The translations under genes were made by a program, and so were the position numbers. Of a stretch of 64,000 nt of DNA, positions 15,528 to 62,936 are shown piece after piece (position 1 is the stretch's first letter; each line of letters starts with the position of its first letter). Source of the DNA: Felis catus. Lineage: Eukaryota. Location of the stretch: assembly GCF_018350175.1 (NCBI RefSeq), contig NC_058368.1:30940001-31004000 (forward strand), in the 5' to 3' direction. Under the pieces are notes generated by a model that saw only the letters and a program-made list of their open reading frames with translations, was not told the origin of the DNA and ran no database searches.

Positions 15528-16132
15528 TAAGTCCACAATTTCTCATACAAACAATTGGGACACGAAAAATATGGAAATTTGGAATCTTTCAGATTTTATC
15601 AAGGAAACATGGGAAATATATTTTATGATATATAACATCTCAGTGGGGACTGGGACACCCTATAATTAAGCACTTTATTTATTTATATAACATATGAAAC
15701 ATATGACTTTTCAAATATCATAGAATAAAGACTGCCATGGGGCGCCTGGGTGGCGCAGTCGGTTAAGCGTCCGACTTCAGCCAGGTCACGATCTCGCGGT
15801 CTGTGAGTTCGAGCCCCACGTCGGGCTCTGGGCTGATGGCTCAGAGCCTGGAGCCTGTTTCTGATTCTGTGTCTCCCTCTCTCTCTGTCCCTCCCCCGTT
15901 CATGCTCTGTCTCTCTGTCCCCAAAAAATTAAATAAACATTGAAAAAAAAAAAAAGACTGCCATTAGTCATACGTCAATTTTGGATCAGTTTTGCCAGCA
16001 AATGTGTTCTGGTGAAATTAGGTTGTGTTGCCAAATGAGATTTTTAAAAAGAAAGCAATAACAAAAAAGCTCACAACTTTGTTTTTCCCAGAGTTTAGGT
16101 CTTAGGACTGTAGCAAAGGATTGCTGTCCCAC
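15528..16132 (+). mobile_element. MER46C-like TcMar-Tigger fossil, interrupted by a young SINE
   Basis: 'gtccacaatttctcatac...agattttatcaagg...taacatctcagtggggactggg...aataaagact...cgtcaattttggatcagttttgccagcaaatg' follows the MER46C layout as I recall it. Confidence 0.7.
15739..15952 (+). mobile_element. Young felid SINEC_Fc-type Can-SINE
   Basis: 'ggggcgcctgggtggcgcagtcggttaagcgtccgacttcagccaggtcacg' with CpGs retained. Perfect TSD aaagactgccat at 15727-15738 and 15953-15964. Confidence 0.96.
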
Positions 16133-24069: not shown

Positions 24070-24175
24070 TCAAATTGACTTAGTGTGTATGTACACGATC
24101 TAAGAAAACTATCTCTGAAGTAGGGAATATGCATGTGAATAATTGCAAATTATGGCAAGAATGGTGAACAGTCAA

Positions 24176-24212
<37 letters not shown>

Positions 24213-24326
24213 ACGAAAGAGGAAGAGTCAAATTGACTTAGTGTGTATGTACAGGATCTAAGAAAACTATCTCTGAAGTAGTAGAATATGCATGTGAATA
24301 ATTGCAAATTATGGCAATAATGGTGA

Positions 24327-24380
<54 letters not shown>

Positions 24381-24396
24381 CACCAAAGAGGAAGAG
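24070..24396 (+). repeat. Two-copy tandem duplication (158 and 169 bp), each copy carrying a (TG)n
   Basis: Units 24070-24227 and 24228-24396 both start 'tcaaattgacttagtgtgtatgtaca' and end 'aaagaggaagag'. Confidence 0.96.
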
Positions 24397-25346
24397 TTTA
24401 TGTATAAAAGTTGCTGCCATATGTAGGGCAGGTGTAGTGGTATCCCAGTCTAACACTAAAAATGCTTCATAGAATAATACATTTCCTAGCATTTGAATAG
24501 ATTAACAGCAATAGAAATTGATTGTTCCATCCAGTATTTAACTTGAAATATTGACTAGTGTACCTGATGTATGATATTTCCATTGAGAGAGGTATAGAGT
24601 TCTTGTCTAGAAGATAACCAAAACCAGCTTCTAAAGAAACTACAAAGTTTCTCTCTCTCAACGTTCCTTTTTAAAAAGTTAATGTCCATTATTTAGAGAA
24701 AATGGTTCTCAGAGTTTGTCTTACAAAGAGCAGTTCAATAGCATCTGCACTCTATGTATTGGTGTTTAGACAAGGGTACTTTTTTTTAAAATTTCATACA
24801 TCAATTAAAATTTTGTAATATTCCATGCAGGATTGCACATATTTTTTAAACGTGTGTGTGTGTGTGTGTGCATGTGCATGCACATGCATGTGTGTGTAAG
24901 AGAAAATATTAAAAGAAGCACAACTAAAAAGTTACTCTCCAGTCTTTGACCCAGGATTGTACACATAACAGTTGTACTCTGCAAAACCTTCACCAGGGTG
25001 GAACAATAAAAGGAGAGTGGATCAGAGAAAAACAAAGAAACAAAAAGCCCTGAAGTATGTCCATGGGAACATACTCATTCCAAAAACATTTGAAATGTGT
25101 ATTACTACTGCGATTCTTTTTTATCATTCTTGTTGATAAATACTAAAAGCATTCCGTTTTAGATAGCTAATTTTTTAACATATTTATTACTGTATATATT
25201 ACTACTATATATATACACACATAATGTTTATATTATATATTATATTTTATGTTATATAAATATATATAAACATATATAACTAGGAGGTGGGGTTAAAATA
25301 AAGGTATATACTAAATGCAAAAGCATGATAGGACACAGACCTATTG

Positions 25347-36932: not shown

Positions 36933-37147
36933 AAATTGTTTTTTCAACGTTTATTTATTTTTGGGACAGAGAGAGACAGAGCATGAACGGGGGAGGGGCA
37001 GAGAGAGAGGGAGACACAGAATCGGAAACAGGCTCCAGGCTCTGAGCCATCAGCCCAGAGCATGACACGGGGCTCGAACTCACGGACCGCGAGATTGTGA
37101 CCTGGCTGAAGTCGGACGCTTAACTGACTGCGCCACCCAGGCGCCCC
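36933..37147 (-). mobile_element. Young felid SINEC_Fc-type Can-SINE
   Basis: CpG-rich and near consensus. Perfect TSD gtgattatttct at 36921-36932 and 37148-37159. Confidence 0.96.
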
Positions 37148-37897
37148 GTGATTATTTCTTTATACAAACAGGACACAATAGCGAATTGATACTACTTCTC
37201 CAGGAAACAGAACTATAACTGATGTTTTCTGGAACACTCTTTTAATTTCAAAACTGAACCCCTGCCTTTGTCACTCCATTACATTCAAAATGAAATAGAG
37301 CATAGTAAAAGTTGTTACAAGTTTGTTGAACTTCCCCCAAACAGAAATTTCTTGAATCCCTAAATTTGATGCTCTAAACCTCAGGATAAAAATGGATTTC
37401 TTGAGCACTAAATCTCAAGCACTAAATGAATTTCATTCAATCAAGAAATATTTATTTAGTACTTTCAAAATGCTGGGCTCTGAAGGACATAGAGCTAAAG
37501 CTATAAATAAATCAGAAGTCATCACTGCCCTCCTGAACCTTCTAGTGTAGAAATTATCTAACACTGTGGTTGTGTTGTTATTTTAGTGATTTCAAATTCC
37601 AAAATTTAGTATGTGAGCAATTTAGAAAACATATAAAATAAACAAATGTTGACTTAGGCGGACCTTAATAACTCATACTCATTTAAGTCTTTGTGTCTCA
37701 AAAATTATTTCATATAAAATATCTATTTCTTCTCACAGTGCTATTGGGTAGGTCAGATTATTCCTCCTATTGTCCTGGTTCATGTAACAAGGCCTTTCAG
37801 TTGGCTAATAACAATTCATCTCCTTTCTCCTTGTGAAAGCTAAATATAAAGAATAAAGGAGGATAATAAGTGGGATGATAATCCTAAGAGAATAAAT

Positions 37898-47379: not shown

Positions 47380-48990
47380 CTTTTCTCATATTTTCCAATA
47401 AACTTAAGGAAGAATTATTTATACCTGCCTTTTATTTCTTTACTTCCTTTTCACCCCTATACCCACCTCAATTGGACTTCCATTCCCATCATTTAAATAA
47501 ATAGATTTCCCTTGAATCACTGATAGATTTATCTGTGCCTGTAAGTTCTAGGGTCACTTTTCACTACTCATCTTACTTGACTTCTGTTGACTATTCCTTT
47601 CTTGATTAAACATTCTTTAATTTCAATCGCCTTATTTACTGAGTTCTGCAGTTTCAGATCTTTCTCCCTGGACATTAAATATTGGAGTTCCTTACATCTT
47701 GGACTTGGGCCCACTCAAATTTTTATGGAAAACCACTTACTCAGGCAATCTTTTCCAAATCCACATTTTCAGTTATTGATACAAATTTATCTCTCCAACA
47801 CCAAAATATATGTTCACCTGCCTACCTCTAGTATCTTTCTTTCTTTGAAGATCTTTTAGACTTGCTGCGTCTGAAATGTAATTTGTGATCATTTCCCTTC
47901 ATCTTATGTTCTAACATTCTCTAAATTGGTTGAGTGCATGACTACCATACACACAAATCAGAAATGTAGGTGCCATTTTTGACATTTTCTCCTTCCCCAT
48001 CACCAAGTTCTATCAATTTTCCTTCTTAAACAGATTTTGAATACATTATTTTCTTTTCATCTCCACCATCACCTATCATCCAGACTATCATCACCTTTTT
48101 TCTGGACTATAGCTATAGCTGCTGTATTTGCTCACATGCATCCGTTTTGGCTTCTACACATTCTGTTGCACCCAGCCTCTGTTAAAAAAAAAATGCAAAA
48201 CAAAACAAAAAAACACCATGTCACTTTCCCCTGCCATATTTAAAACATTCCAATCACTTTCCATTGCTCTTAGGATAAATGAAAGACCTTACAATATTAA
48301 AAAACAAACAAAACCTCTGTCTTATAAATCTTTAAACCCTTATTAAAACATTGTAGACACAAGACAGAAGTAAACTAGTAAGTTATTTTTATTTGATGTT
48401 CATTGAGCACTTACTATGGACATGAACTATAATAAACCTTCAAAAGTATCTCACTTAATCTCCATAAATCTAATAGAATGAATACATTCATGTATCAACT
48501 TTATAGAAAAGAATATTTAGGTTTCAAAATGTCATGAATATGGAACCCTGCTTATCTACAGTCTCATAACACATTCGTCTTTTCTTGATTGTCTGCTTTA
48601 GCCATACTGGTCTCCATTCAGTTCTGCATTCTAGGCATGTTCCTTCCCATACAGGGCTTTTGATTGTGTTGTCCTCTCCTTCCAAAACCTTCTACCTTTG
48701 TCCACCGACCCTTCAGCTAGTTCATGCTCCTGAGGTCTTAGGTCAATTGTTGCTTCCTCAGAAAAACTCTCCCTGACTTCTCTGACAATGAATTGCCTCC
48801 AAATGTAAGCTCTTTTAGCCCCATACACTTCTCCTTGCGAGTGTTTAGTACTTTATCACAGTTATAAGTCACACTTTTGTATGAGGTCCTTTGATTTATC
48901 TATCTCTGTCGGTCCATAATAAGTTTCATGAGGGCAAGGGAAGTTTTTCCTTTTGTTAAACCCTTTAATTTTAGCACCTAGCATGGTTGC
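47380..48990 (+). mobile_element. L2 (about 1.3 kb) interrupted by a templated insertion at 48291-48540
   Basis: 'ttccattgctcttaggataaat', 'agccatactggtctcc' and 3' end 'taagtttcatgagggcaagg...tagcacctagcatgg'. Confidence 0.75.
48291..48540 (+). repeat. Old local copy of 49333-49480 plus 58849-58940 (unique flank and MIR, pre-L1 state)
   Basis: Shared 'aagaca.aagtaaacta.taa', 'ttatttttatttga', 'tatggacatg', 'ataaac.ttcaaaa.tatc', 'tttatagaaaa' and 'aatgt.atgaat'. Confidence 0.85.
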
Positions 48991-49480
48991 TGAATGATTT
49001 GGGTTATGTTACCTTGAGAAGTAATACATTGACTATCATGTACATGTGGATTTTATCTTTTTCTTTTTTTTTTTTTAAGTATTGGTACAGAAAACAATGC
49101 TTTGAGAAATTATGATAGAAAAAAAAAGCTGAGAGGGTCCTGTACCTGGGCAGGTTCCCTCATAGCACTAAGGCAGTTACTGAGTTATAGAGTAAATGTT
49201 AGGGGTTATGCCATGTGTTTGCAGGGAAATAAGTTATGATTGAATTAAAGGCAATATATATTTTTAGGAAACATAGCTTACTTTATTGCAGCCCTCTAGT
49301 GAGCGGCGTGAAGTATAATAAAAATGTAAGAGCAACAGTAAATATACAAACCTTTTGACACATCTTTTAAAAAACTTATAAAACATATTAGAAATAAGAC
49401 AAAAGTAAACTAATAAAATTTATTTTTATTTGACATTCACTTAACACTTAATATGGACATGCATTATATGATAAACTTTC

Positions 49481-52400
49481 TTTTATTTTCTTTTTTTAAA
49501 TATATAATTTATTGTCAAATTGGCTTACATACAATACCAAGTGCTCATCCCAACAAGTGCCCTCTTCAATGCCGATCACCCATTTCCCCCTCTTCCCCAC
49601 CCCCATCAACCCTCAGTTTGTTCTCAGATTTTAAGAGTCTCTTATAGTTTGCCTCCATCCCTCTCTGTTTGTAACTATTTTTCCCCTTCCCTTCCCCCAT
49701 GGTCTTCTGTTAAGTTTCTCAACATCCACATAAGAGTGAAAACATATGGTATCTGTCTTTCTCTGACTGACTTATTTCACATAGCATAATACCCTCCAGT
49801 TTGATCCACACTGCTACAAATGGCCAGATTTCATTTGTTTTCTTTGTCAAGTAGTATTCCATTGCATGTGTAAACCACATCTTCTTTTATCCATTCAACA
49901 GGTGATGGATATTTAGGCTCTTTCCATAATTTGACTAAAGTTGAAAGCACTGCTATAAACATTGGGGTACATGTGCCCCTATGCATCAGTACTCCTGTAT
50001 CCCTTGGGTAAATTCTGAGTAGTGCTACTGCTAGGTCATAGGGTAGTTCTATTTTTAATTTTTTGAAGAACCTCCACACTGTTTTCCAGAGTGGCTGCAC
50101 CAGTTTGCATTCCCACCAACAGTGCAAGAGGGTTCCCGTTTCTCCACATCCTCTCCAGCATGTATAGTGTCCTGATTTGTTCATTTTAGCTACTCTAATT
50201 GGCAGAAGGTGGTATCTCAGTGTGGTTTTGATTTGTATTTCCCTGGTGAGGAGTGATGTTGAGCATCTTTTCATGTGCCTGCTGGCCATCTAGATGTCTT
50301 CTTTAGAGAAGTGTCTATTCATGTCTTCTGCCCATTTCTTCATTGGATTATTTATTTTCAGGTGCAGAGTTTGGGGAGTTCTTTACATATTTTGGATACT
50401 AGCCCTTTGTCTGATAAGTCATTTGCAAATATCTTCCCATTCCATCGGTTGTCTTTTAGTTTTGTTGATTGTTTCCTTTGCAGTGCAGAAGCTTTTTATC
50501 TGGATGAGGTCCCAATAGTTCCTTTTTGCTTTTAATTCCCTTGCCTTTGGAGATGTGTCGAGTAAGAATTGCTGCAGCTGAAGTCAGAGAGGTTTTTGCC
50601 TACTTTCTCCTCTAGGATTTTGATGGTTTCCTGTCTCACATTCAGGTCCTGTATCCATTTTGAGTTTATTTTTGTGTATGGTGTAAGAAAGTGGTCTCGT
50701 TTCATTCTTCTGCATGTTGTTGTCCAGTTCTCTCAGCACCATTTGTTAAAGAGACATTCTTTTTTTTTCCATTGGATACTCTTTCCTGCTTTGTCAAAAA
50801 TTATTTGGCCATGCTTTTGTGGGTCCAAACCTGGGTTCTCTATTCTATTCCATTGGTCTATGTGTCTGTTTTTGTGCCAAAGCATACTATCTTGATGACT
50901 ACAGCTTTGTAGTAGAGGCTAAAATCTTGGATTGTGATGCCTCCCGCTTTGGTCTTCTTCTTCAAAATTACTTTGGCTATTCAGGGTCTTTTATGGTTCC
51001 ATACAAATTTTAGGACTGCTTGTTCTACCTTCGAGAAGAATGCTGGTGTCATTTTGATTGGGGTTGCATTGAATGTGTAGATAGCTTTGGGTAGTATTGA
51101 CATTTTAACAATATTTATTCGTCCAATCCATGAGCACGGAATGTTTTTCCATTTCTTTATATCTTCAATTTCCTTCATAGCTTTCTATAGTTTTCAGCAT
51201 ACAGATCTTTTACATCTTTGGTTAGGTTTATTCCTAGGTATTATATGCTTCTTGGTGCAGTTGTGAATGGGATCAGTTTCTTTATTTGTCTTTCTGTTGC
51301 TTCATTCATGCAGTTGCTTCATTCATGCAGTTCAAGAATGCAACTGATTTCTGTAATTGATTTTGTATCCTGAGACTTTGCTAAATTCATATATATCAGT
51401 TCTAGCAGACATTTGGTGGAGTCTATCAGGTTTTCCATGTATAGTATCATGTCATCTGCAAAAAGTGAAAGCTTGACTTCATCTTTGCCAATTTTGATGC
51501 CTTTGATTTCCTTTTGTTGTCTGATTGCTGAAGCTAGAACTTCCAACACTCTGTTAAACAACAGCGGTGAGAGTGGACATCCCTGTCGTGTTCCTGATCT
51601 CAGGGAAAAAGCTCTCAGTTTTTTTCCATTGAGGATGATATTAGCTGTGGGCTTTTCATAAATGGTTTTATGATGTTTAAGTATATTCCTTCTATCCCGA
51701 CTTTCTCGAGGGTTTTTTTTAAGAAAGGATGCTGAATTTTGTCAAATGCTTTTTCTGCAATTGACAGGATCATATGGTTCTTATCTTTTCTTTTATTAAT
51801 GTGAGGTATCACACTGATTGATTTGCAAATGTTGAACCAGCCCTGCAGCACAGGAATGAATCCCACTTGATCATGGTGAATAATTCTTTTTATATGCTGT
51901 TGAATTCGATTTGCTAGTATCTTATTGAGAATTTTGCATCCATATTCATCAGGGATATTGGCCTGTAGTTCTCTTTTTTTGCTGGGCCTCTGTCTGGTTT
52001 GGGAATCAAAGTAATGCTGGCTTCATAGAATGAGTCTGGAAGTTTTCTTTCCCTTTCTATTTTTTGGAATAGCTTGAGAAGGATAGGTATTATCTCTGCT
52101 TTAAATGTCTGGTAGAATTCCCCTGGGAAGCCATCTGGTCCTGGACTCTTATTTTTTGGGAGATTTTTGATAACTGATTCAATTTGTTCACTGGTTGTGG
52201 GTCTGTTCAAGTTTTCTTTTTCTTCCTGTTTGAGTTTTGGAAGTGCATAGGTGCTTAGGAATTTGTCCATTTCTTCCAGGTTGTTCAGTTTGTTGGCATG
52301 TAATTTTTCATAGCATTCCCTGATAATTGCTTGTATCTCTGAGGGATGGTTGTAATAATTCCATTTTTATTCATGATTTTATCTATTTGGGTCATCTCCC

Positions 52401-55400
52401 TTTTCTTTTTGAGAAGCCTGGCTAGAGGTTTATCAATTTTGTTTATTTTTTCAAAAAACCCCCTCTTGGTTTCATTGATCTGCTATACAGTCTTTTTTAG
52501 ATTCTGTATTGTTTATTTCTGCTCTGATCTTTATTATTTCTCTTCTTCTGCTGGGTTTGGGGTATCTTTGCTGTTCTGCTTCTATTTCCTTTAGGTGTGC
52601 TGTTAGATTTTGTATTTGGGATTTTTCTTGTTTCTTGAGATAGGCCTGGATTGCAATGTATTTTCCTCTCAGGACTGCCTTCGCTGCATCCCAAAGTCTT
52701 TGGGTTGTTGTATTTTCATTTTAATTTGTTTCCATATATTTTTAAATTTCTTCTCTAATTGCCTGGTTGACCCATTGATTCTTTAGTAGGGTGTTCTTTA
52801 ACCTCCACGCTTTTGGAGGTTTTCCAGACTTTTTCCTGTGGTTGATTTCAACCTTCATAGCATTGTGGTCTGAAAGTATGCATGGTATGATCTCAATTCT
52901 TTTATACTTATAAAGGGCTGTTTTGTGACCCAGAATGTTATCTATCTTGGAGAATCGTCCATGTGCACACGAGAAGAAAGTATATCCTGTTGCTTTGGGA
53001 TGCAGAGTTCTAAATATATATGTCAAGTCCATCTGATCCAATGTATCATTTAGGGCCCTTGTTTCTTTATTGATCCTGTGTCTGGATGATCTATCCATTG
53101 TTGTAAGTGGAGTATTAAAGTCCCCTTCAATTACCACATTCTTATCAATAAGGTTGCTTATGTTTGTGTTTAATTGTTTTATATATTTGGGGGCTCCTGT
53201 ATTCAGCACATAGACATTTATAATTGTTAGCTCTTCCTGATGGATAGACCCTGTGATTATTATATAATGCCCTTCTTCATCTCTTGTTACAGCCTTTAAT
53301 TTAAAGTCTAGTTTGTCTGATATAAGCTTGGCTACTCCAGCTTTCTTTTGACTTCCAGTAGCATGATAGATATTTCTCCATCCCCTCACTTTCAATCTGA
53401 AGGTGTCCTCAGGTGTAAAATGAGTCTCTCGTAGACAGCAAATAGATGGGTCTTGTTTTTTTTTTTTTTTTTTTTATCCATTCTGATACTATGTCTTTTG
53501 GTTGAAGCATTTAGTCCATTTACATTCAGTGTTTTTACACAAAGATATGGGTTTAGAGTCATTGCGATGTCTGTAGTTTTCATGCTTGTAGTGATGTCTC
53601 TGGTACTTTGTGGTCCTTGTAACATTTCATTCACAGAGTCCCCCTTAGGATCTCTTGTAGGGCTGGTTTACTGGTGATGAATTCCTTCAGTTTTTGTTTG
53701 TTTGGGAAGACCTTTATCTCTCCTTCTATTCTGAATGACAGACTTGGTGGATAAAGGATTCTTGGCTGCATATTTTTTTCTTTTCATCACATTGAAGATG
53801 TCCTGCCACCTTTCTGGCCTGCCATGTTTCAGTAGATAGGTCTGTCACTAGTCTTATCGGTCTCCCTTTATATGTTAGAGTGTGTTTATCCCTAGCTGCT
53901 TTCAGAATTTTCTCGTTATCCTTGTATTTTGCCAGTTTCACTATGATATGTTGTGCAGAAGATTGATTCAAGTTATGTATGAAGGGAGTTCTCTGTACCT
54001 CTTGGATTTCAATGCCTTTTTCCTTGCCCAGACCAGGGAAGTTCTCAGCTGTACTTAATTTGTTCAAGTACACCTTCAACCTCTTTCTCTCTCTCTTCCT
54101 CTTCTGGAATTCCTATTATATGGATATTGTTCCGTTTCATTGCATTGCTTAGTTCTCTAATTCTCCCCTCAAACTCCTGGATTTTTTTTATCTCTCTTTT
54201 TCTCAGCTTCCTCTTTTTCCATAATTTTATCTTCTAATTCACCTATCCTCTCCTCTCCCTCTTCAATCCGAGCTGTGGTCTCCTCCATTTTATATTGCAC
54301 CTCATTTATAGCATTTTTAGCTCCTTGTGACTATTTCTTAGTCCCTTGACCTCTGTAGCAATAGATTCTCTGCTGTCCTCTATACTTTTTTCAAGCCCAG
54401 CGATTAATTTTATGACTATTATTCTAAATTCATGTTCCTTTATGTTGTTTAAATCATTTTTGATCAATTCATTAGCTGTCTCTACTTCCTGGAGTTTCTC
54501 TTGAGGAAAATTCTTCCATTTTGTTATTTTTATAGTCCCTGGGGTGGTGTAGGACTGCAGGCAGGGCACTTCCCCTGTGCTGTTTGGAGTAACTTGTGTT
54601 GGTGGGCGGGGCTGCAGTCAGACCTGATGTCTATCCCCACCCCACCGCTGGGGCCACAGTCAGACTGGTGTGTACCTTATCTTCCCCTCTCCCAGGGGCA
54701 GGTCTCACTGTGGACTGGTGTGGCCCCTGTCTGGGCTACTTGTACAATGGCAGGCTTGTGGTGCTGCTTTGAAGGGATCTGGCGTATTAGCTGGGGTGGA
54801 TCTGCAAAGTGCACAGGGGTAGGAGGGGCAGGCATAGCTCGCTTTTTTGTTGGTGGTCCCCTGCAGGAGGGGACATGTAGCACTGGGACAGAGGCAGGCA
54901 GACCATCGGAGTGATGGATCCACAGAAGCACAGCATTGGGTATTTGCGTGGTGCAAGCAAGTTCAGTGACAGGAACTGGTTCCCTTTGGGATTTTAGCTG
55001 GGGAATGGGAGAGGGAGATGGCGCTGGCCAGCAGCTTTGTTCCCCTGCCAGGCTGAGCTCTGTTTTCCAGGGCTCAACAACTCTCCCTCCTGGTGTCCTC
55101 TTGCCCTTCCGCTCTCTGAGCAGAGCGGTTGACTTATAACATTCCAGATGTTAAGTCCCACTGGCTGTCAGAACTCACTCCTTCCGACCCCTCCGTTTTT
55201 GCAAGCCAGGCTCGGGGGCTCTGCCTTGTAGGGTGGGCTGCCCCTTCACTGCCCCGCCTCCCTCCTGCCAATCCATGTAGCACGCACTGCCTCTCCACCC
55301 TTCCTACCCTCCTCCGTGGGTCTCTTGTCTACAGTTTGCTCCTGAGAGTCCATTCTGCTAGTCTTCTGGTGGTTTTCTGGGTTATTTAGGCAGATATGGG

Positions 55401-55464
55401 TGGAATCTAAGTGATCATCAGGACGCAGTGAGCCCAGCGTCCTCCTATGCCACCATCTTGCCCC
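49481..55464 (-). mobile_element. Full-length but disabled cat-lineage L1 ('A')
   Basis: 5'UTR from 'ggggcaagatggtggc'. ORF1 pieces 54306..54569 and 53726..54079; endonuclease 52742..53395; RT 51319..51561 ([11 protein letters not shown]); Cys-rich C-terminus 49831..50289; 3'UTR and tail. Multiple frameshifts. Confidence 0.97.
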
Positions 55465-55473
55465 ATAAAAAAA

Positions 55474-58400
55474 TCTCCATATATTTTTTAAAATTTCTTC
55501 TTTAATTGCATGGTTGACCCATTTGTTCTGTAGTAGGATGTTCTTTAACCTCCCTGCATTTGGAGATTTTTCCAAACTTTCTCTTGTGGTTGATTTGAAG
55601 TTTCATAGTGTTCTGATCCATGAAAGTGTGTATGATATGATCTCAATTCTTTTATAGTTATTGAGGGCTGTTTTGTAACCCAGCATGTGATCTATCTTGG
55701 AGAATGTTCCATGCACACTTGAGAATACTGTATATTCTGCTGCTTTAGTATGAAAAGTTCTAAATATATCTGTCAAGTCTGTCTGGTCCAGTGTATCATT
55801 CAGGGCCATTGTTTCTTTATTGATTTTCTGTCTAGATGATCTGTCCATTGCTATAAATGGAGTATTAAAGTCCCCTGCAATTACCATGTTCTTACCAATA
55901 ATATTGGTTATGTTTGTGATTATCTCATATATTTGGGTTCTCCCAAATTTGGTGCACAGACATTTATAATTGTTAGTTCTTCTTGATGGATAGACCCTGT
56001 AGTTATTATATAATGCCCTTCTTCATCTCTTATTACAACCTTTAGTTTAAAATCTAATTTGTCTGTTATAAGTATGGCTACTCTAGCTTTCTTTTGGCTT
56101 CCAGTAGCATGATAGATGGTTCTCCATCCCTTCACTTTCAATCTGAAGGTGTTCTTAGGTCTAAAATGGGTCTGTTTTAGATAGCAAATAGATAGGGTTT
56201 TTTTTAAATCTATTCTGATACCCTATGTCTTTTGATTAGAGCGTTTAGTCCATTTACATTCAGTGTCATTGTTGAAAGATATAGGTTTGAATCATTGTGT
56301 TATATGTAGGTTTCATGCTTGTAGTGATGTCTCTGGTCCTTTGTGGTCCTTGAAACATTTCACTCACAGAGTCTCCTTAGGATCTTGTGTAGGGCTGGTT
56401 TAGTGGTGATGAATTCCTTCAGCTTTTGTTTGTTTGAGAAAACTTTTATCTCTCCTTCCACTCTGAATGACAGGCTTGCTGGATAAAGGATTCTTGGCTG
56501 CATATTTTTCCTGTTCATTACATTGAAAATTTCTTGCCACTCCTTTCTGGCCTGTTAACTTTCAGTAGATAGATCTAATACTACCCTATGTGTCTACCCT
56601 TGCATGTTTGGGCCCGTTTATTCCTCGTGCTTTCAGAATTCTCTCTTTATCTTTGCATTTTGCCAGTTTCACTATGATATGTTGTGCAGAAGATTGATTC
56701 AAGTTATGTCTGAAGGGTGTGGTCTGTGCCTCCTGGATTTCAATGTCTGTCTCTTTCCCCAAATTGGGGAAGTTCTCAGCTATGATTTGTTCAAGTACAT
56801 CTTTGTCCCCTTTCTTCTTCTTCTTCTGGAACTCCTATGATACAGGTATTGTTCTGTTTCATTGAATCACTTACTACTCTAATTCTCCCCTCATGATCCA
56901 GATTTTTTTTATCTTTCTTTTTATCAGTCTCATCTTTTTGCATAATTTTATCTTCTATTTCACCTATTCTCCCCTCTGCTTCTTCAGTCCTCACTGTTGC
57001 CACCTTCGTTTCATTTTGCACCTCATTTGTATCATTTTTTAATTCATCATGACAATTTTTTAGTTCCTTGACCTTTGAAGCAATAGATTCTCTGCTGTTT
57101 TCTATGCTTTTTTCAAGCCCAACGATTAGGATTATTATTTTAAATTCTTGTTCAGTTATATTGTTTATATCTGTTTTGAGCAATTCTTTAGTTGTCATTT
57201 CTTCCTGGAATTTCTTTCGATGAAAATTCTTCTGTTTCATCATTTTGGCTAGTTTTCTGTCCCTAATGTGTTTTAAAAGCTTGTTATGTGCCCTGCACCT
57301 GCAAGCACTACTATATTAAAGAGGGATCATACATTGTTCAGGGACTAGCCCTTCAGGAGGTGTTTTTTTTGGAGTGTTACTTGTTCTCTATTGTTGTGAC
57401 TTTGGTTACTTTATCTCCTTATTCATAGTGATGTTTTGGACCCTCCACCAGGTGTGCTTTGATTTGTTTTTTGAAGTAGCCTGGAAAGGAAAACAAACAA
57501 CAAACAGAAAACAAAAATGCAAACATACAAACAAAGAAAAACAACAACAACAACAACAACAACAAAAATCCAGAAACACCAGCTGCCAGTAAACAACAGG
57601 GTGGAGATGGTACTGATGGAAGAGCACATACAAAGAGAGAAATAACAGGGGCGGGGAAATAAAAAAAAATAAACATTGACAGGGCAGAGAAACTGTACAG
57701 CTTAATCCAAAGAGAGAGAAAGGAAAATAAAGAAGGAGGCAGGGGAAAAGAAAAGAAGATGAAGTCCAGACAGGGAAACTATACAGCTTAATCCAGAGAG
57801 ATAGAAAGAAAAATAAGGAAGGAGGTGTAGAGCATGTATCAAGAAAATTGATTAAATATGTCTGTTTAAACAAACCAACAACCAGAGTAACCAGGCTAGA
57901 GGAGGGAAGAGAGAAGGAGAAAAGGAAGGAGGAATGTATCTATATTATAAGAATTGTCAGAGATTTAAACCCGGCACTGCAGCAGTGCAGGTCTGGAGGA
58001 GGGGCTGTCTGGTTCCTCAGCATCTAGCCTGCTCCAGTACCTGGCACAGAGGGCATGGTTTGGAATAGTCGAGTCCCGCCTCCACTGGGTCCCTATGGGC
58101 CAATCCCTGAGGCCCCCACTCGGTGGAGGTGGTGGGGAGAAAAATGGCGACACCCCGTCTCTCCTCCAGGGACGTGGTATCCCAAAGCACTCTGTTTGAG
58201 CCGTCCTCACTGTGCCGCGAGCATAAATGAGGCGGTTTGTCTCGCTTTGCGACTCGCATGCCCTGGTACTTGGCTGGGATTCATACTGCCATTCTACACA
58301 CCCCTGGACTGGAGAAGCACCACTCAGTGCCACCCAATATGTGGTCTCTGGTTGGCGGATACAGGCAGGCTTTGTCCTGTATCACAGCATTCCAGGATGG

Positions 58401-58834
58401 GGATCACTTTCTCCTAGTGCAGACTGCACCCCTGACCTAGCCACAGGCCCGGGGCTGGCTCCCCTCCTCCCCAGGTGCCTGATGCTGGCAGCTGACCCTA
58501 GTCCGGAGAAAGCCCCTTGGTTAGAGATTGGATCTTTCTCCATCCCAGTCTGAGGTCTTTCTGTCGTCCAGATACAGTTTTGTGCTTCCCCAGCCTCTCT
58601 TTCTCTTCCCTTTATCTCTCCGCAGAAGGGGATCCCTCCCCTCTGTTGATCTCTCCCAGTTCACCATCACTTACCTATGGCCTATCAGGTTGTCCCAGTG
58701 GGTCTCTGGAAGTGATTCTGTCTCTTTGCCTCCCAGACTATTGGGGGTCAAAGTCCTTTGGCTTCAACTCTGCTTTGTTTGAGAGATGAGGGAACTTCAG
58801 ATCCCCCTACTTATCCACCATGTTGGCCCCTGCC
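55474..58834 (-). mobile_element. 5' half of a second L1 ('C') with a different 1.6-kb 5'UTR, ORF1 and endonuclease domain
   Basis: 5' 'ggggccaacatggtgg'. ORF1 56791..57243; endonuclease 55920..56141 and 55603..55887. Confidence 0.95.
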
Positions 58835-58848
58835 TGTAATAAACTTTC

Positions 58849-58965
58849 AAAAATATCACTTAATCCTCATAAGTCTGGTAGAAGACATTAATTTATCAGT
58901 TTTATAGAAAAAAAGTTGAGTCTTCACAATGTTATGAATTATATCCTAGCCCACACAGCAAGGCT
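58849..58965 (-). mobile_element. Right half of a MIR split by the composite L1 (left half about 49430-49480)
   Basis: 'cacttaatcctcata...ttttatagaaaaaaagttgag...cacacagcaag' continues the MIR from 'acattcacttaacacttaatatg'. Confidence 0.7.
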
Positions 58966-59217
58966 ATTGTGTTGAAGATACCACAGATCTTATTCCATAA
59001 TCAATGAATTAAAATTTAAAACAAGAGCTTCTCATATTTCAGTAATGTGTGTACCCTCATTAAAATATCAAAATATTTCTGAATATTCCTACTGTATAAT
59101 TAAATGAGCATTGTGATATTACTTAAACATAGAAATATAGTGGTGAAATTCTTGTACTTATAGATTTGTGGAAACGAAAATAAATCAACATTAGGTTTTA
59201 TAAATTTTATAAATCAA

Positions 59218-61283
59218 GATGTCCACTCTCACCACCATTGTTTAATATAGTGTTGGAAGTTCTAGTATCAGCAATCAGACATGAAAAAGAAATCAAACGC
59301 ATCAAAACTGGCAGAGATGAAGTCAAGCTTTCACTTTTTGCAGATGACATGATAGTATACATGGAAAATCTGATAGACTCCACCAGAAGTCTGCTAGAAC
59401 TGATACATGAATTCAGCAAAGTTGCAGGGTACAAAGTTAATGTACAGAAATCAGTTGCATTCTTATACACTAATAATGAAGCAACAGAAAGACAAATACA
59501 GAAACGGATCCCATTCACAATTGCACCAAGAAGCATAAAATACCTAGGAATAAACCTAACCAAGATGTAAAAGATCTGTATGCTGAAAACTATAGAAAGC
59601 TTATGAAGGAAATTGAAGAAGATACAAAGAAATGGAAAAACATTCTGTGCTCATGGATTGGAAGAATAAATATTGTTAAAATGTCAATACTACCCAAAGC
59701 TATCTACACATTCAATGCAATCCCAATCAAAATGACACCAGCCTTCTCAATGCTAGAAAAAAAAATCCTAAAACTTGTGTGGAACCCACAAAAGACCCCG
59801 AATAGCCAAAGTAATACTGAAGAAGAAGACCAAAGTAGGAGGCATCACAACCCCAGACTTTAGCCTCTACTACAAAGCTGAAATAATCAAGACAATATGG
59901 TATTGACACAAAAACAGACACATAGACCAATGGAATAGAATAGAGAACCCAAAATTGGACCCAAAAAATGTATGTCCAACTACTCTTTGACTAAGCAGGA
60001 AAAAGTATTCAATGGATAAAAGACAGTCTCTTTAGCAAATGGTGCTGGGAGAACTGGACAACAACATGCAGAAGAATGAAACTAGACCACTTTCTTACAC
60101 CATACACAAAAATAAACTCAAAATGGATGCAGGACCTGAATGTGAGACAAGAAACCATCAAAACCCTAGAGGAGAAAGTAGGCAAAAACCTCTCTGACCT
60201 CAGCTGCAGCAATTTCTTACCTGATACATCTCCAAAGGCAAGGGAATTAAAAGCAAAAAGGAACTATTGGGACCTCATCCAGATAAAAAGCTTCTGCACT
60301 GCGAAGGAAACAATCAACAAAACTAAAAGACAACCAGTGGAATGGGAAAAGATATTTGCAAATGACATATCAGACAAAGGGCTAGAATTCAAAATCTATA
60401 AAGAAGTCACCAAACTCCACACCCAAAAAACAAATAATCCAGTGAAGAAATGGACAGAAGACATGAATGGACATTTTTCCAAAGAAGAAATCCAGATTAC
60501 CAACAGGCACATGAAAAGATGCTCAACATCACTCCTCATCAGGGAAATACAAATCAAAACCACACTGAGATACCACCTCCTGCCAATCAGAGTGGCTAAA
60601 ATGAACAAATCAGGACACTATACATGCTGGAGAGGATGTGGAGAAACGGGAACCCTCTTGCACTGTTGGTGGGAATGCAAACTGGTGCAGCCACTCTGGA
60701 AAACAGTGTGGAGGTTCTTCAAAAAATTAAAAATAGAACTACCCTATGACCTAGCAGTAGCACTACTCAGAATTTACCCAAGAGATACAGGAGTGCTGAT
60801 GCATAGGGGCACATGTACCCCAATGTTTATAGCAGTGCTTTCAACTTTAGTCAAATTATGGAACGAGCCTAAATGTCCATCACCTGTTGAATGGATAAAA
60901 GAAGATGTGGTTTACACATGCAATGGAATACTACTTGACAAAGAAAACAAATGAAATCTGGCCATTTGTAGGATGGAATTAGAGGGTATTATGCTATGTG
61001 AAATAAGTCAGTCAGAGAAAGACAGATACCATATGTTTTTACTCTTTTGTGGATCTTGAGAAACTTAACAGAAGACCATGGGGGAGAGAATGGGGGAAAA
61101 AAGTTACAGAGAGGGAAGGAGGCAAACCATAAGAGACTCTCAAAAACTGAGAATAAACTGAGGGTTCATGGGGGATGGGAGTGAGGGGAAAGTGGGTGAT
61201 GGGCATTGAGGACAGCACCTGTTGGGATGAGCACTGGGTGTTGTATGGAAACCAATTTGACAATAAATTACATATTAAAAAAA
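59218..61283 (+). mobile_element. 5'-truncated cat-lineage L1 ('B'), inverted relative to A
   Basis: ORFs 59238..59570 (FADDM), 59603..59863 and 60076..60954. 3'UTR ends 'aatttgacaataaattacatattaaaaaaa'. Confidence 0.97.
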
Positions 61284-61515
61284 TGTTTCATAATCCTATC
61301 TCTCATCTATAAAGACTGTATGTCTTCTTGTAGAATATGAGTATATTAAACATATATTAAACAAAATAAAGCCTTTACCCTAAAAAAATGACAAATCAAG
61401 TAAAAACAAAAGTGTAAAAAATTGATTCAAATTAACAGCATTATTATAATACATTATTATTTGCAAAATTAAATTCCTAAAATGTGAATTCTGTATTGAT
61501 AGCTATAGCTTAAGC

Positions 61516-61976
61516 TGTTTATTATCTGCATAGGTAGATTCTGCTACATTGATAATGGGCTTCAAATATCAGTGCCTTAACACATACAATTCTATCACAT
61601 GACTTACATTGTTGATTCTCTAGGGCAGATTTCACCATGCTAATTTGGGATCTCCATGCTTAGCACCAAAGCAGATAAACAACTAGAGTAATATACAGAA
61701 TAATTTTCCCTGCCTCATCTTTGAGGCGACACTGTAAACCATAATGATTACCATGTATTAAATGCCTGTGATGTGCATGATAATATATCAGGCATTTTAT
61801 TGTTTTTAATTTTTTATGTTTTTAATGTTGATTTATTTTTGAGAGACAGAGACACAGCTCAAGACTAAGATAAGAACTAGTCACATGGCCCCATCTAAAT
61901 ATAAGAGGGCTGGCTGCTGTATGTCCCAAGAATGACATTATCATGTATATTGGTGAGTACAAATAATGACTATCAT
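61516..61976 (-). mobile_element. MLT1-like LTR interrupted by a templated insertion
   Basis: 'aaatatcagtgccttaaca', 'aactagtcacatggccccatctaa' and 'attggtgagtacaaataatgactatca'. Confidence 0.7.
61728..61860 (+). repeat. Dispersed local copy of 62793-62920 (templated insertion)
   Basis: Near-identical 'gacactgt(t)aaaccataatgattacca.gtattaaatgcctgtgatgtgcatgataatatatcaggcattttatt...gagagacagagacacagctc'. Confidence 0.95.
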
Positions 61977-62865
61977 GATTCCAAAACTGAAATGCTGTAC
62001 TCTTAAATGGTTTCAAACTGTATTACCATGCACATAAAATACATTTAATTTCTGTTATTGGTAAATTACTAAACATGAATACAAGATTAAATACAGATGT
62101 TTGTTATTGTTTTAATATTGGAACTATGGGCAGTAAGCTCTGCCTTTCAGTATCTTGAAACTGAGAGACTGCCATTTCTATAGATGCTCTCTTGGCCCCA
62201 AAATAATCTTAAATACAAAATGCAAGTATGAGCCATGAGCTTCTAGACAATATTTGGTTAAAAGGTGGTCACTGAGATGATTCAGAATAAGAATTTTTTA
62301 TTATCTTCAATAACTCAAAGTAACATTGGATAGAGAAGTCATGGCCACATGTGAGAATACGTTGCCAACCCCACAGTTTGAGAAACAGTGTACTGTCTAC
62401 AGCTATTCTCACTGTAGAGCAAAGTGACAAGATGAGTAGAAAATGAATAAAAAAAATGTTCAAGAGCAAGATGATTGTGGAGTGGAGTGGTAGTGAAAGG
62501 ATTCATGGGCAGGAAGGATTTGAGCTCAGCCTTGAAAAAATAAGAGGACTTAAACAGAAAGGAGAGAATTGGAGTCTCAGCAGGCTGAACATCATAAAAG
62601 AAGAAGGGGAGAGAGCAAGGTTTGTTCATGGGTTAAGAAGGTGAACTTATTTGGAATGAAGAGTTTGTTCTGAAGAGTATTTCCTGTTTTATGTATAATG
62701 AAAAGCTAGAGAAAAATTCTAAGTGAAAAACTGTGCCTCCTTGAAAATGGTGCTTTGGACAAATAATGTAATTTTCAGTGATTAGTGGTGGTGACACTGT
62801 TAAACCATAATGATTACCACGTATTAAATGCCTGTGATGTGCATGATAATATATCAGGCATTTTA

Positions 62866-62936
62866 TTTTTTAAAAATTTTTTTAATGTTGATTTATTTAT
62901 GAGAGACAGAGACACAGCTCTATTGGGGGAGGGACA

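What the first reader, a model, noticed from the sequence alone, without database searches (positions are those of the whole stretch)
49481..61283. Patchwork gene conversion between two inverted L1 copies
By hand alignment, B 60541-60970 versus A about 49815-50244 differs at about 7 of 430 nt, and 60601-60780 and 60241-60300 are identical to A. Adjacent 60-nt blocks (60361-60480, 61141-61260, 59941-60000) differ at about 9-12 nt each. Within the tracts both copies share changes from the usual L1 ORF2 sequence ([36 protein letters not shown]) and the same +1 frameshift (ggataaaagaagatg, giving [13 protein letters not shown]). Independent insertions should not share disabling mutations in sharply bounded blocks. 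I infer repeated intrachromosomal conversion between inverted arms of about 2 kb, resembling palindrome arm-to-arm conversion on a small scale.
Basis: partly seen in the sequence, partly recalled or inferred. Interest (0 to 1): 0.75.

Follow-up and report, generated by a model that had tools for sequence, protein, structure and literature searches.

The report
Inverted L1 pair with converted tracts
Two dead L1 jumping-gene copies that point in opposite directions 7.6 kb apart share the same old damage in three sharply bounded stretches, most likely because DNA repair copied one onto the other long ago; this is a clear case of a known process (gene conversion between neighbouring repeats).

Summary
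Copy A (49492-51581, minus strand) and copy B (59218-61283, plus strand) differ at 8.4% overall, but in two states, 2.7% and 14.8% (0 of 100,000 permutations). Three main tracts of about 570, 290 and 230 nt carry the low state. In the tracts tested with homologous proteins, both copies share decay mutations that the L1 family lacks: 16 of 222 codons, against 0 of 81 outside. The shared frameshift is in 0 of 120 homologues. Sequence therefore passed between the copies after they had decayed. 'Repeated' is not shown: all tracts fit one age (p=0.40), so one patchy event fits. The arms are not palindrome-grade (2.1 kb, 92% identical), and the interior is not inverted. Simple assembler mixing is unlikely, because the tracts hold 25 substitutions, some 1-2 nt from shared mutations. 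No read-level or orthologue test was obtained. Verdict: non-allelic gene conversion between neighbouring retrotransposons, known for Alu within about 10 kb and seen at inverted L1s. Ordinary in kind. Mildly notable are tracts laid across roughly 11% divergence and unchecked notes of two similar pairs in this genome.

The parts
49481..55460 (-). L1 copy A: near full length and dead (stops and frameshifts); its 3' 2.1 kb (49492-51581) is the left arm
   Evidence: ORF1, endonuclease, RT and C-terminal fragments; Pfam Exo_endo_phos on 52742-53470; self-BLAST
59218..61283 (+). L1 copy B: 5'-truncated, ends in a short A-run; the right arm; no convincing TSD
   Evidence: best TSD candidate 9 nt with 1 mismatch and not abutting the 5' end
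49703..50277 (-). Tract 1 in A (partner B 60508-61075): 16 events in 569 columns, including a 24-nt unconverted patch (49793-49816) around a 7-nt indel; holds the shared frameshift and 11 shared decay codons
50448..50735 (-). Tract 2 in A (partner B 60046-60334): 11 events in 289 columns; 5 shared decay codons
51047..51274 (-). Tract 3 in A (partner B 59507-59737): 9 events in 230 columns; low divergence is clear, shared decay only weakly shown (8 of 123 outgroup-unanimous sites)
60508..61075 (+). Tract 1 in B
60046..60334 (+). Tract 2 in B
59507..59737 (+). Tract 3 in B
50278..50447 (-). Unconverted block (partner B 60335-60507): 27 events in 172 columns, private decay in both copies. The other unconverted blocks are A 49492-49702 (30/209), 50736-51046 (46/310) and 51275-51581 (34/292)
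55476..58830 (-). 5' part of a third L1 (C): different 5' UTR, ORF1 and endonuclease start, 16.5% diverged from A; lies in the spacer between the arms
49469..49480 (+). Left copy of a 12-nt TSD-like repeat that encloses A and C together
58836..58847 (+). Right copy of that repeat (1 mismatch), in direct orientation: the interior is not inverted against the left flank
48328..48539 (+). Old paralogue of the empty site; aligns across both flanks of the A+C insertion in direct orientation
   Evidence: 23% diverged

Best explanation
A and B are two L1 insertions of one carnivore (feliform-like) family that decayed separately. When they were already about 11% apart, homologous repair used one as template for the other and overwrote three stretches of about 230-570 nt, carrying across the donor's point mutations and a frameshift. 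The stretches have since drifted about 2.7% apart by fresh mutation in both copies. Shown: the two-state patchwork, decay mutations shared only inside tracts, private decay in both copies outside, one apparent age, no net inversion. Inferred: the repair route (synthesis-dependent repair of a break from the neighbour on the same or the sister chromatid, or a long heteroduplex repaired in patches). The number of events (one patchy episode or a short burst) and the direction of each tract are open. No function is implied; this is neutral repair fallout.
For: Patchwork beyond chance: 0 of 100,000 permutations; HMM rates 0.027 and 0.148. Shared rare residues, 20 closest homologues: 16 of 222 tract codons, 0 of 81 others, where A has 13, B 10 and both 1 private change. 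At positions conserved in all homologues: 14 of 174 against 0 of 80, p=0.006. At DNA sites where older L1 outgroups agree: shared 28 of 459 against 7 of 266, p=0.047, with 2 A-private and 2 B-private changes inside tracts. Frameshifted motif in 0 of 120 homologues, in-frame motif in 55. Unconverted blocks look like neutral decay: pN/pS 0.60 against 0.75 expected, p=0.59. Of 8 control pairs none has a run over 53 nt. Precedent: raised conversion between Alu copies within 10 kb (PMC6598467, PMC8230782); conversion beside an inversion between opposed L1PA7 copies (PMC5829575).
Against: No reads and no orthologues were examined, so neither physical reality nor one-way transfer is shown directly. 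B has no convincing TSD, so independent insertion rests on the lack of shared decay outside tracts. No DNA copy of the same subfamily was found (best outgroup 77-79%); the family test is at protein level and covers mainly tracts 1 and 2. Tract 3 has thin shared-decay evidence, and the relaxed test there failed. The DNA-level contrast is only p=0.047. Tract limits were defined from the A/B differences, so the excess of private changes outside them is circular; only the shared counts are a fair test.
Confidence: 0.8

Rival explanations
1. Assembly or polishing artefact: reads of the two nearby copies were mixed, so the tracts of one copy are not real.
For: No read-level check exists. The three tracts are centred roughly 550-600 nt apart. 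Unchecked notes report two more homogenised inverted L1 pairs at 10-11 kb in the same assembly, one of them letter-perfect, which a systematic fault could also give.
Against: A path-switching chimera would be letter-identical apart from heterozygosity. The tracts hold 25 substitutions in 1134 nt (p=2e-9 at a 0.5% error rate), derived in both directions. Ten differences lie within 20 nt of a protein-validated shared decay codon, three of them within 1-2 nt (B 60129, 60579, 60588), too close for a k-mer switch. Only site-by-site consensus mixing of 15%-diverged reads could mimic this.
Confidence: 0.09
2. The tracts are scars of crossovers: the 7.6-kb interior inverted and re-inverted through the L1 arms, each exchange leaving a conversion tract and swapping the arm ends.
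For: The geometry is that of repeat-mediated inversions. Human inversions flanked by L1PA3 or THE1C arms with 7-21 kb interiors exist, and many repeat-mediated inversions recur (PMC3961182, passages). An inversion between opposed L1PA7 copies carried a conversion (PMC5829575, passages).
Against: The interior is in the ancestral orientation: the TSD-like pair and the empty-site paralogue both read directly, and full-length A is continuous. An even number of flips is needed, and the single apparent age gives no sign of repeated events. This is a variant of the best explanation, not a true opposite.
Confidence: 0.06
3. B is a relatively recent local inverted duplicate of A's 3' end (2.7% old), and the diverged blocks were later overwritten from other old L1 copies elsewhere.
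For: It explains one age for all tracts and B's missing TSD.
Against: It needs four separate overwrites, including both ends, from distant donors about 15% apart. B ends at the poly(A) and is 5'-truncated like an ordinary insertion, and no flank of A was copied with it. Both copies carry private decay in the blocks tested.
Confidence: 0.04
4. No exchange: the shared changes belong to a mosaic source subfamily, or the tracts are mutation cold spots.
For: Same-subfamily DNA copies could not be examined. Total derived changes per copy are a little lower in tracts (6.5%) than outside (7.5-9.0%).
Against: A source element would not carry a frameshift plus 16 rare replacements. The tracts are not undecayed; they are decayed identically. 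GC content is the same in both states (38.4% and 38.7%).
Confidence: 0.01

Closest known systems
Non-allelic gene conversion between neighbouring transposon copies (Alu-Alu, LTR-LTR; review PMC6598467, parts 1-2 of 4 read; PMC8230782, passages; Aleshin & Zhi 2010 seen only as cited there)
   Same: Separately inserted copies within about 10 kb share non-diagnostic, post-insertion mutations; mosaic identity; tract sizes of a few hundred bases match mammalian estimates (PMC3924818, PMC3961182, passages).
   Different: L1 rather than Alu or LTR; one pair readable tract by tract instead of a genome-wide statistical signal; three tracts of one apparent age covering about half of a 2-kb arm.
Recombination between oppositely oriented L1 copies (L1PA7-flanked inversion with conversion, PMC5829575; L1PA3-flanked HsInv0341, PMC3961182; passages read)
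   Same: Inverted L1 arms a few kb apart exchanging sequence, with conversion as the footprint.
   Different: No net inversion here; several tracts; old, with the tracts re-diverged by 2.7%.
Palindrome arm-to-arm conversion on mammalian X and Y (10.1101/800185, PMC3723533, PMC8327919; search listing and abstract starts only)
   Same: Inverted arms around a spacer, homogenised by conversion.
   Different: Those arms are over 10 kb and over 99% identical, and are kept so continuously. These are 2.1-kb dead retrotransposons, 92% identical, with exchange apparently stopped.

Membership tests
Non-allelic gene conversion between neighbouring TE copies | Homologous copies at separate loci, close together | tested here: met
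   arms 7.6 kb apart, inverted
Non-allelic gene conversion between neighbouring TE copies | Bounded tracts more alike than the rest of the pair | tested here: met
   2.7% against 14.8%; 0 of 100,000 permutations; absent in 8 control pairs
Non-allelic gene conversion between neighbouring TE copies | Post-insertion (non-family) mutations shared only inside tracts | tested here: met
   16/222 against 0/81; 14/174 against 0/80; frameshift motif 0/120; weak for tract 3
Non-allelic gene conversion between neighbouring TE copies | Copies inserted independently (own TSDs) | tested here: inconclusive
   TSD-like pair around A+C; none convincing for B; no shared decay outside tracts
Non-allelic gene conversion between neighbouring TE copies | One-way transfer shown by orthologues or alleles with the unconverted state | not testable with these tools
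   no genome held; no orthologous locus obtained
Non-allelic gene conversion between neighbouring TE copies | Tracts present in real molecules, not only in the assembly | not testable with these tools
   no reads were examined; indirect argument only
Palindrome (amplicon) arm-to-arm conversion | Arms over 10 kb and over 99% identical | tested here: not met
   2.1 kb, 91.6%; definition from the abstract start of 10.1101/800185
Palindrome (amplicon) arm-to-arm conversion | Continuing, repeated conversion | tested here: not met
   tracts re-diverged 2.7% and fit one age
Repeat-mediated inversion | Interior reversed against the flanks | tested here: not met
   direct TSD-like pair and empty-site paralogue
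Repeat-mediated inversion | Both orientations among alleles or species | not testable with these tools
   needs orthologues
Path-switching assembly chimera | Tracts letter-identical, with switches only at long shared words | tested here: not met
   25 substitutions in tracts, interleaved with shared sites at 1-20 nt

The most novel reading that the evidence does not exclude
All three tracts come from a single event: the two arms paired over their whole 2 kb despite about 11% mismatch, for example as a fold-back stem with a 7.6-kb loop in single-stranded DNA, and the heteroduplex was repaired in patches, skipping short stretches around indels. Together with two similar inverted L1 pairs at 10-11 kb noted (unchecked) among 88 windows of this genome, this would point to a common, orientation-dependent route that homogenises old inverted L1 pairs at about 10 kb spacing and tolerates far more mismatch than reporter assays suggest. 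Eight literature searches listed no survey of this for L1; the library lacks most subscription papers.
Probability: 0.2. Interest if true: 0.6.

Novelty: new member of a known kind. Interest (0 to 1): 0.33.

Why it matters
As a single locus it changes little: conversion between nearby repeats is established. It is a clean example because decay mutations mark the tracts. It shows tracts of several hundred bases laid down between copies already about 11% apart, and it warns that neighbouring L1 copies are not independent clocks when repeats are dated by divergence. If the one-event, inverted-only reading held genome-wide, old L1 pairs would give a large natural data set on how mismatch, spacing and orientation limit ectopic repair in the germ line.

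Tried and rejected
(1) Whole genome: none is held, so no subfamily copies or GENECONV-type test. (2) Viral contigs held no relative of the B ORF. Metagenome contigs gave 12 loci from 543 pattern matches; 5 aligned to the arms at DNA level, the best at 77-79%, usable only as distant outgroups. (3) A family-like motif found 0 matches in the window. (4) Run search: 24 runs of one coded organism, 10 studies, holding 0.71-0.78 of 399 sampled words of 58800-62700. (5) The relaxed protein test for the 5' half is unreliable: 7 of its 9 'shared' rows in tract 3 come from an off-frame alignment, and of its 5 'shared' rows outside tracts at least 3 are residues that the hyena protein P0005 also has, so carnivore-versus-other differences. 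I dropped it as evidence and kept only its event counts. (6) Different ages among tracts: not found (p=0.40; the tract-1 core against tracts 2 and 3, p=0.055, the nearest thing to a signal). (7) The 30-nt and 50-nt low runs of the HMM may be chance: about 2 exact runs of 31 nt or more are expected at 14.8%. (8) Host gene context: 148 of 180 open frames of at least 55 codons outside the L1s were scanned with Pfam; none reached a curated cut-off (4 weak hits). (9) Earlier notes near this place or in look-alike stretches: none. (10) Aleshin & Zhi 2010 is not held. No supplements were read. The script stopped with an error after printing the tables used; the rest was rerun.

Full report
Observation. 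Self-BLAST of the window gives one strong inverted match, 49492-51581 against 61283-59218. A is the 3' end of a near full-length, dead L1 on the minus strand (49481-55460); B is a 5'-truncated L1 on the plus strand. For the longest identical run (188 nt), the sum of squared runs and the window variance, 0 of 100,000 permutations reach the observed value. A two-state HMM gives rates of 2.7% and 14.8%. Merged, there are three main tracts: A 49703-50277 (16 events in 569 columns), 50448-50735 (11 in 289) and 51047-51274 (9 in 230). They alternate with blocks of 30/209, 27/172, 46/310 and 34/292. Of 8 control repeat pairs in the window none is comparable. The A/C pair is mildly uneven (p 0.008-0.04, longest run 53 nt), and one old pair has p=0.016 on one of three measures.

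Are the shared changes family traits? The 319-codon frame of B (59995-60951) found 7999 homologues, of which the tool listed the best 120. The closest named ones are from hyena, meerkat, lynx and seals, so the family is carnivore and feliform-like. Against the 20 homologues at 68% identity or more, 303 of 319 codons could be scored. Inside tracts, 16 of 222 codons carry the same rare residue in A and B, with 3 changes private to A and 1 to B. Outside, 0 of 81 are shared, with 13 private to A, 10 to B and 1 in both. At positions conserved in all homologues the counts are 14 of 174 against 0 of 80 (p=0.006). The frameshifted motif is in 0 of 120 proteins and the in-frame motif in 55. At DNA level only distant outgroups were available (66-79%). 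Where they agree, A and B share a change at 28 of 459 tract sites and 7 of 266 others (p=0.047); the latter is the family baseline. The tracts are thus decayed identically, not undecayed. Two limits apply: the excess of private changes outside tracts is circular, since tracts were defined from A/B differences, and tract 3 is supported mainly by its low divergence (8 of 123 shared sites; the protein test there failed). The unconverted blocks look like neutral decay (pN/pS 0.60 against 0.75 expected, p=0.59).

Real or assembled? No reads were examined, so this stays open in principle. Internally, a chimera made by switching between read paths would be letter-identical in the tracts. They hold 25 substitutions in 1134 nt, p=2e-9 even at a 0.5% error rate. 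The derived base lies in either copy (2 and 2 at unanimous sites). Ten differences lie within 20 nt of a protein-validated shared codon, three of them within 1-2 nt. That fits fresh mutation on a shared haplotype. Site-by-site mixing during polishing could mimic it, but would need reads 15% apart to pile together. I leave about 9% for an artefact, partly because unchecked notes list two more homogenised inverted L1 pairs in this assembly.

One event or many? The six low segments fit one rate (chi-square 5.1, p=0.40). The 188-nt run is expected within its tract (p=0.13), and the tract-1 core against tracts 2 and 3 gives p=0.055. A third HMM state splits only the high class (AIC 1162 against 1152). 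So 'repeated' is not shown, though power is low with about 30 events. By ratio, the tracts are about one fifth as old as the A/B split, so the copies were near 11-12% apart when exchange happened (inference, assuming one clock). Two short skipped patches inside tracts (A 49793-49816 and 50555-50570) each contain an indel, as patchy repair of a heteroduplex might leave; this is suggestive only.

Orientation and anatomy. A 12-nt direct repeat (49469-49480 and 58836-58847, one mismatch) encloses A together with the 5' 3.4 kb of a third L1, C. A paralogue of the empty site at 48328-48539 aligns across both flanks. The interior therefore has its ancestral orientation: no inversion, or an even number of them. 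B has no convincing TSD. No host exon was detected among 148 of 180 open frames scanned.

Mechanism. Most likely, a break or stalled fork in one copy was repaired from its neighbour and three stretches were overwritten. Shown: patchwork, shared decay, one apparent age, no net inversion. Inferred: the pathway, the number of events and the direction.

Comparison with what is known. Conversion between transposon copies, raised within 10 kb, is reviewed in PMC6598467 (parts 1-2 of 4 read) and PMC8230782 (passages); neighbouring-Alu homogenisation is also cited in PMC3670932 (passages). Mammalian tracts are typically a few hundred bases (PMC3924818 and PMC3961182, passages); PMC3924818 also warns that tracts read from natural sequence need not equal single events. 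An inversion with conversion between opposed L1PA7 copies is described in PMC5829575 (passages). The pair meets the testable marks of non-allelic conversion. It fails those of sex-chromosome palindromes (size, identity, continuing exchange; listing only) and of a repeat-mediated inversion. Eight searches listed no survey of conversion between neighbouring inverted L1 pairs, but the library lacks most subscription papers, Aleshin & Zhi 2010 was not held and no supplements were read.

Verdict. Observation confirmed; interpretation partly supported; new member of a known kind; interest 0.33. The bolder reading is one fold-back pairing across about 11% mismatch, repaired in patches, as part of a common inverted-L1 process. 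It is not excluded (probability 0.2, interest 0.6) and can be tested with orthologues and a genome-wide orientation test.

Noticed in passing
window 49469-58847: Full-length L1 A and the 5' 3.4 kb of a different L1 (C, another 5' UTR, 16.5% diverged) lie inside one 12-nt TSD-like pair, joined by a short A-run at 55461-55475. Possible causes: nested insertion followed by deletion, a template switch, or 5' read-through from an upstream L1 promoter. The arm called A may thus be part of a chimera.
   Followed up: partly
window 48328-48539: Old local paralogue (23% diverged) of the empty site of the A+C insertion, 1 kb to its left; useful as a built-in pre-insertion reference.
   Followed up: partly
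window 52731-54530 and 55476-57246: The direct pair A/C is mildly uneven (p 0.008-0.04), with a 53-nt identical run ending at 53978: a small conversion or ORF1 conservation.
   Followed up: partly
window 51296-51332: 17-nt tandem duplication private to A, just beyond the edge of tract 3.
   Followed up: no
window 24070-24397: 159-nt tandem duplication (92% match) in which each unit ends in a GT microsatellite.
   Followed up: no
window 15736-15951 and 36936-37150: Inverted SINE pair 21 kb apart, 92% identical, without significant patchiness. The copy at 15736 has a clear flanking direct repeat; its assignment to cat-family SINEs is recalled, not tested.
   Followed up: partly
window 61725-61860 and 62790-62920: 136-nt direct repeat at 90% identity, 1 kb apart, right of B.
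   Followed up: no
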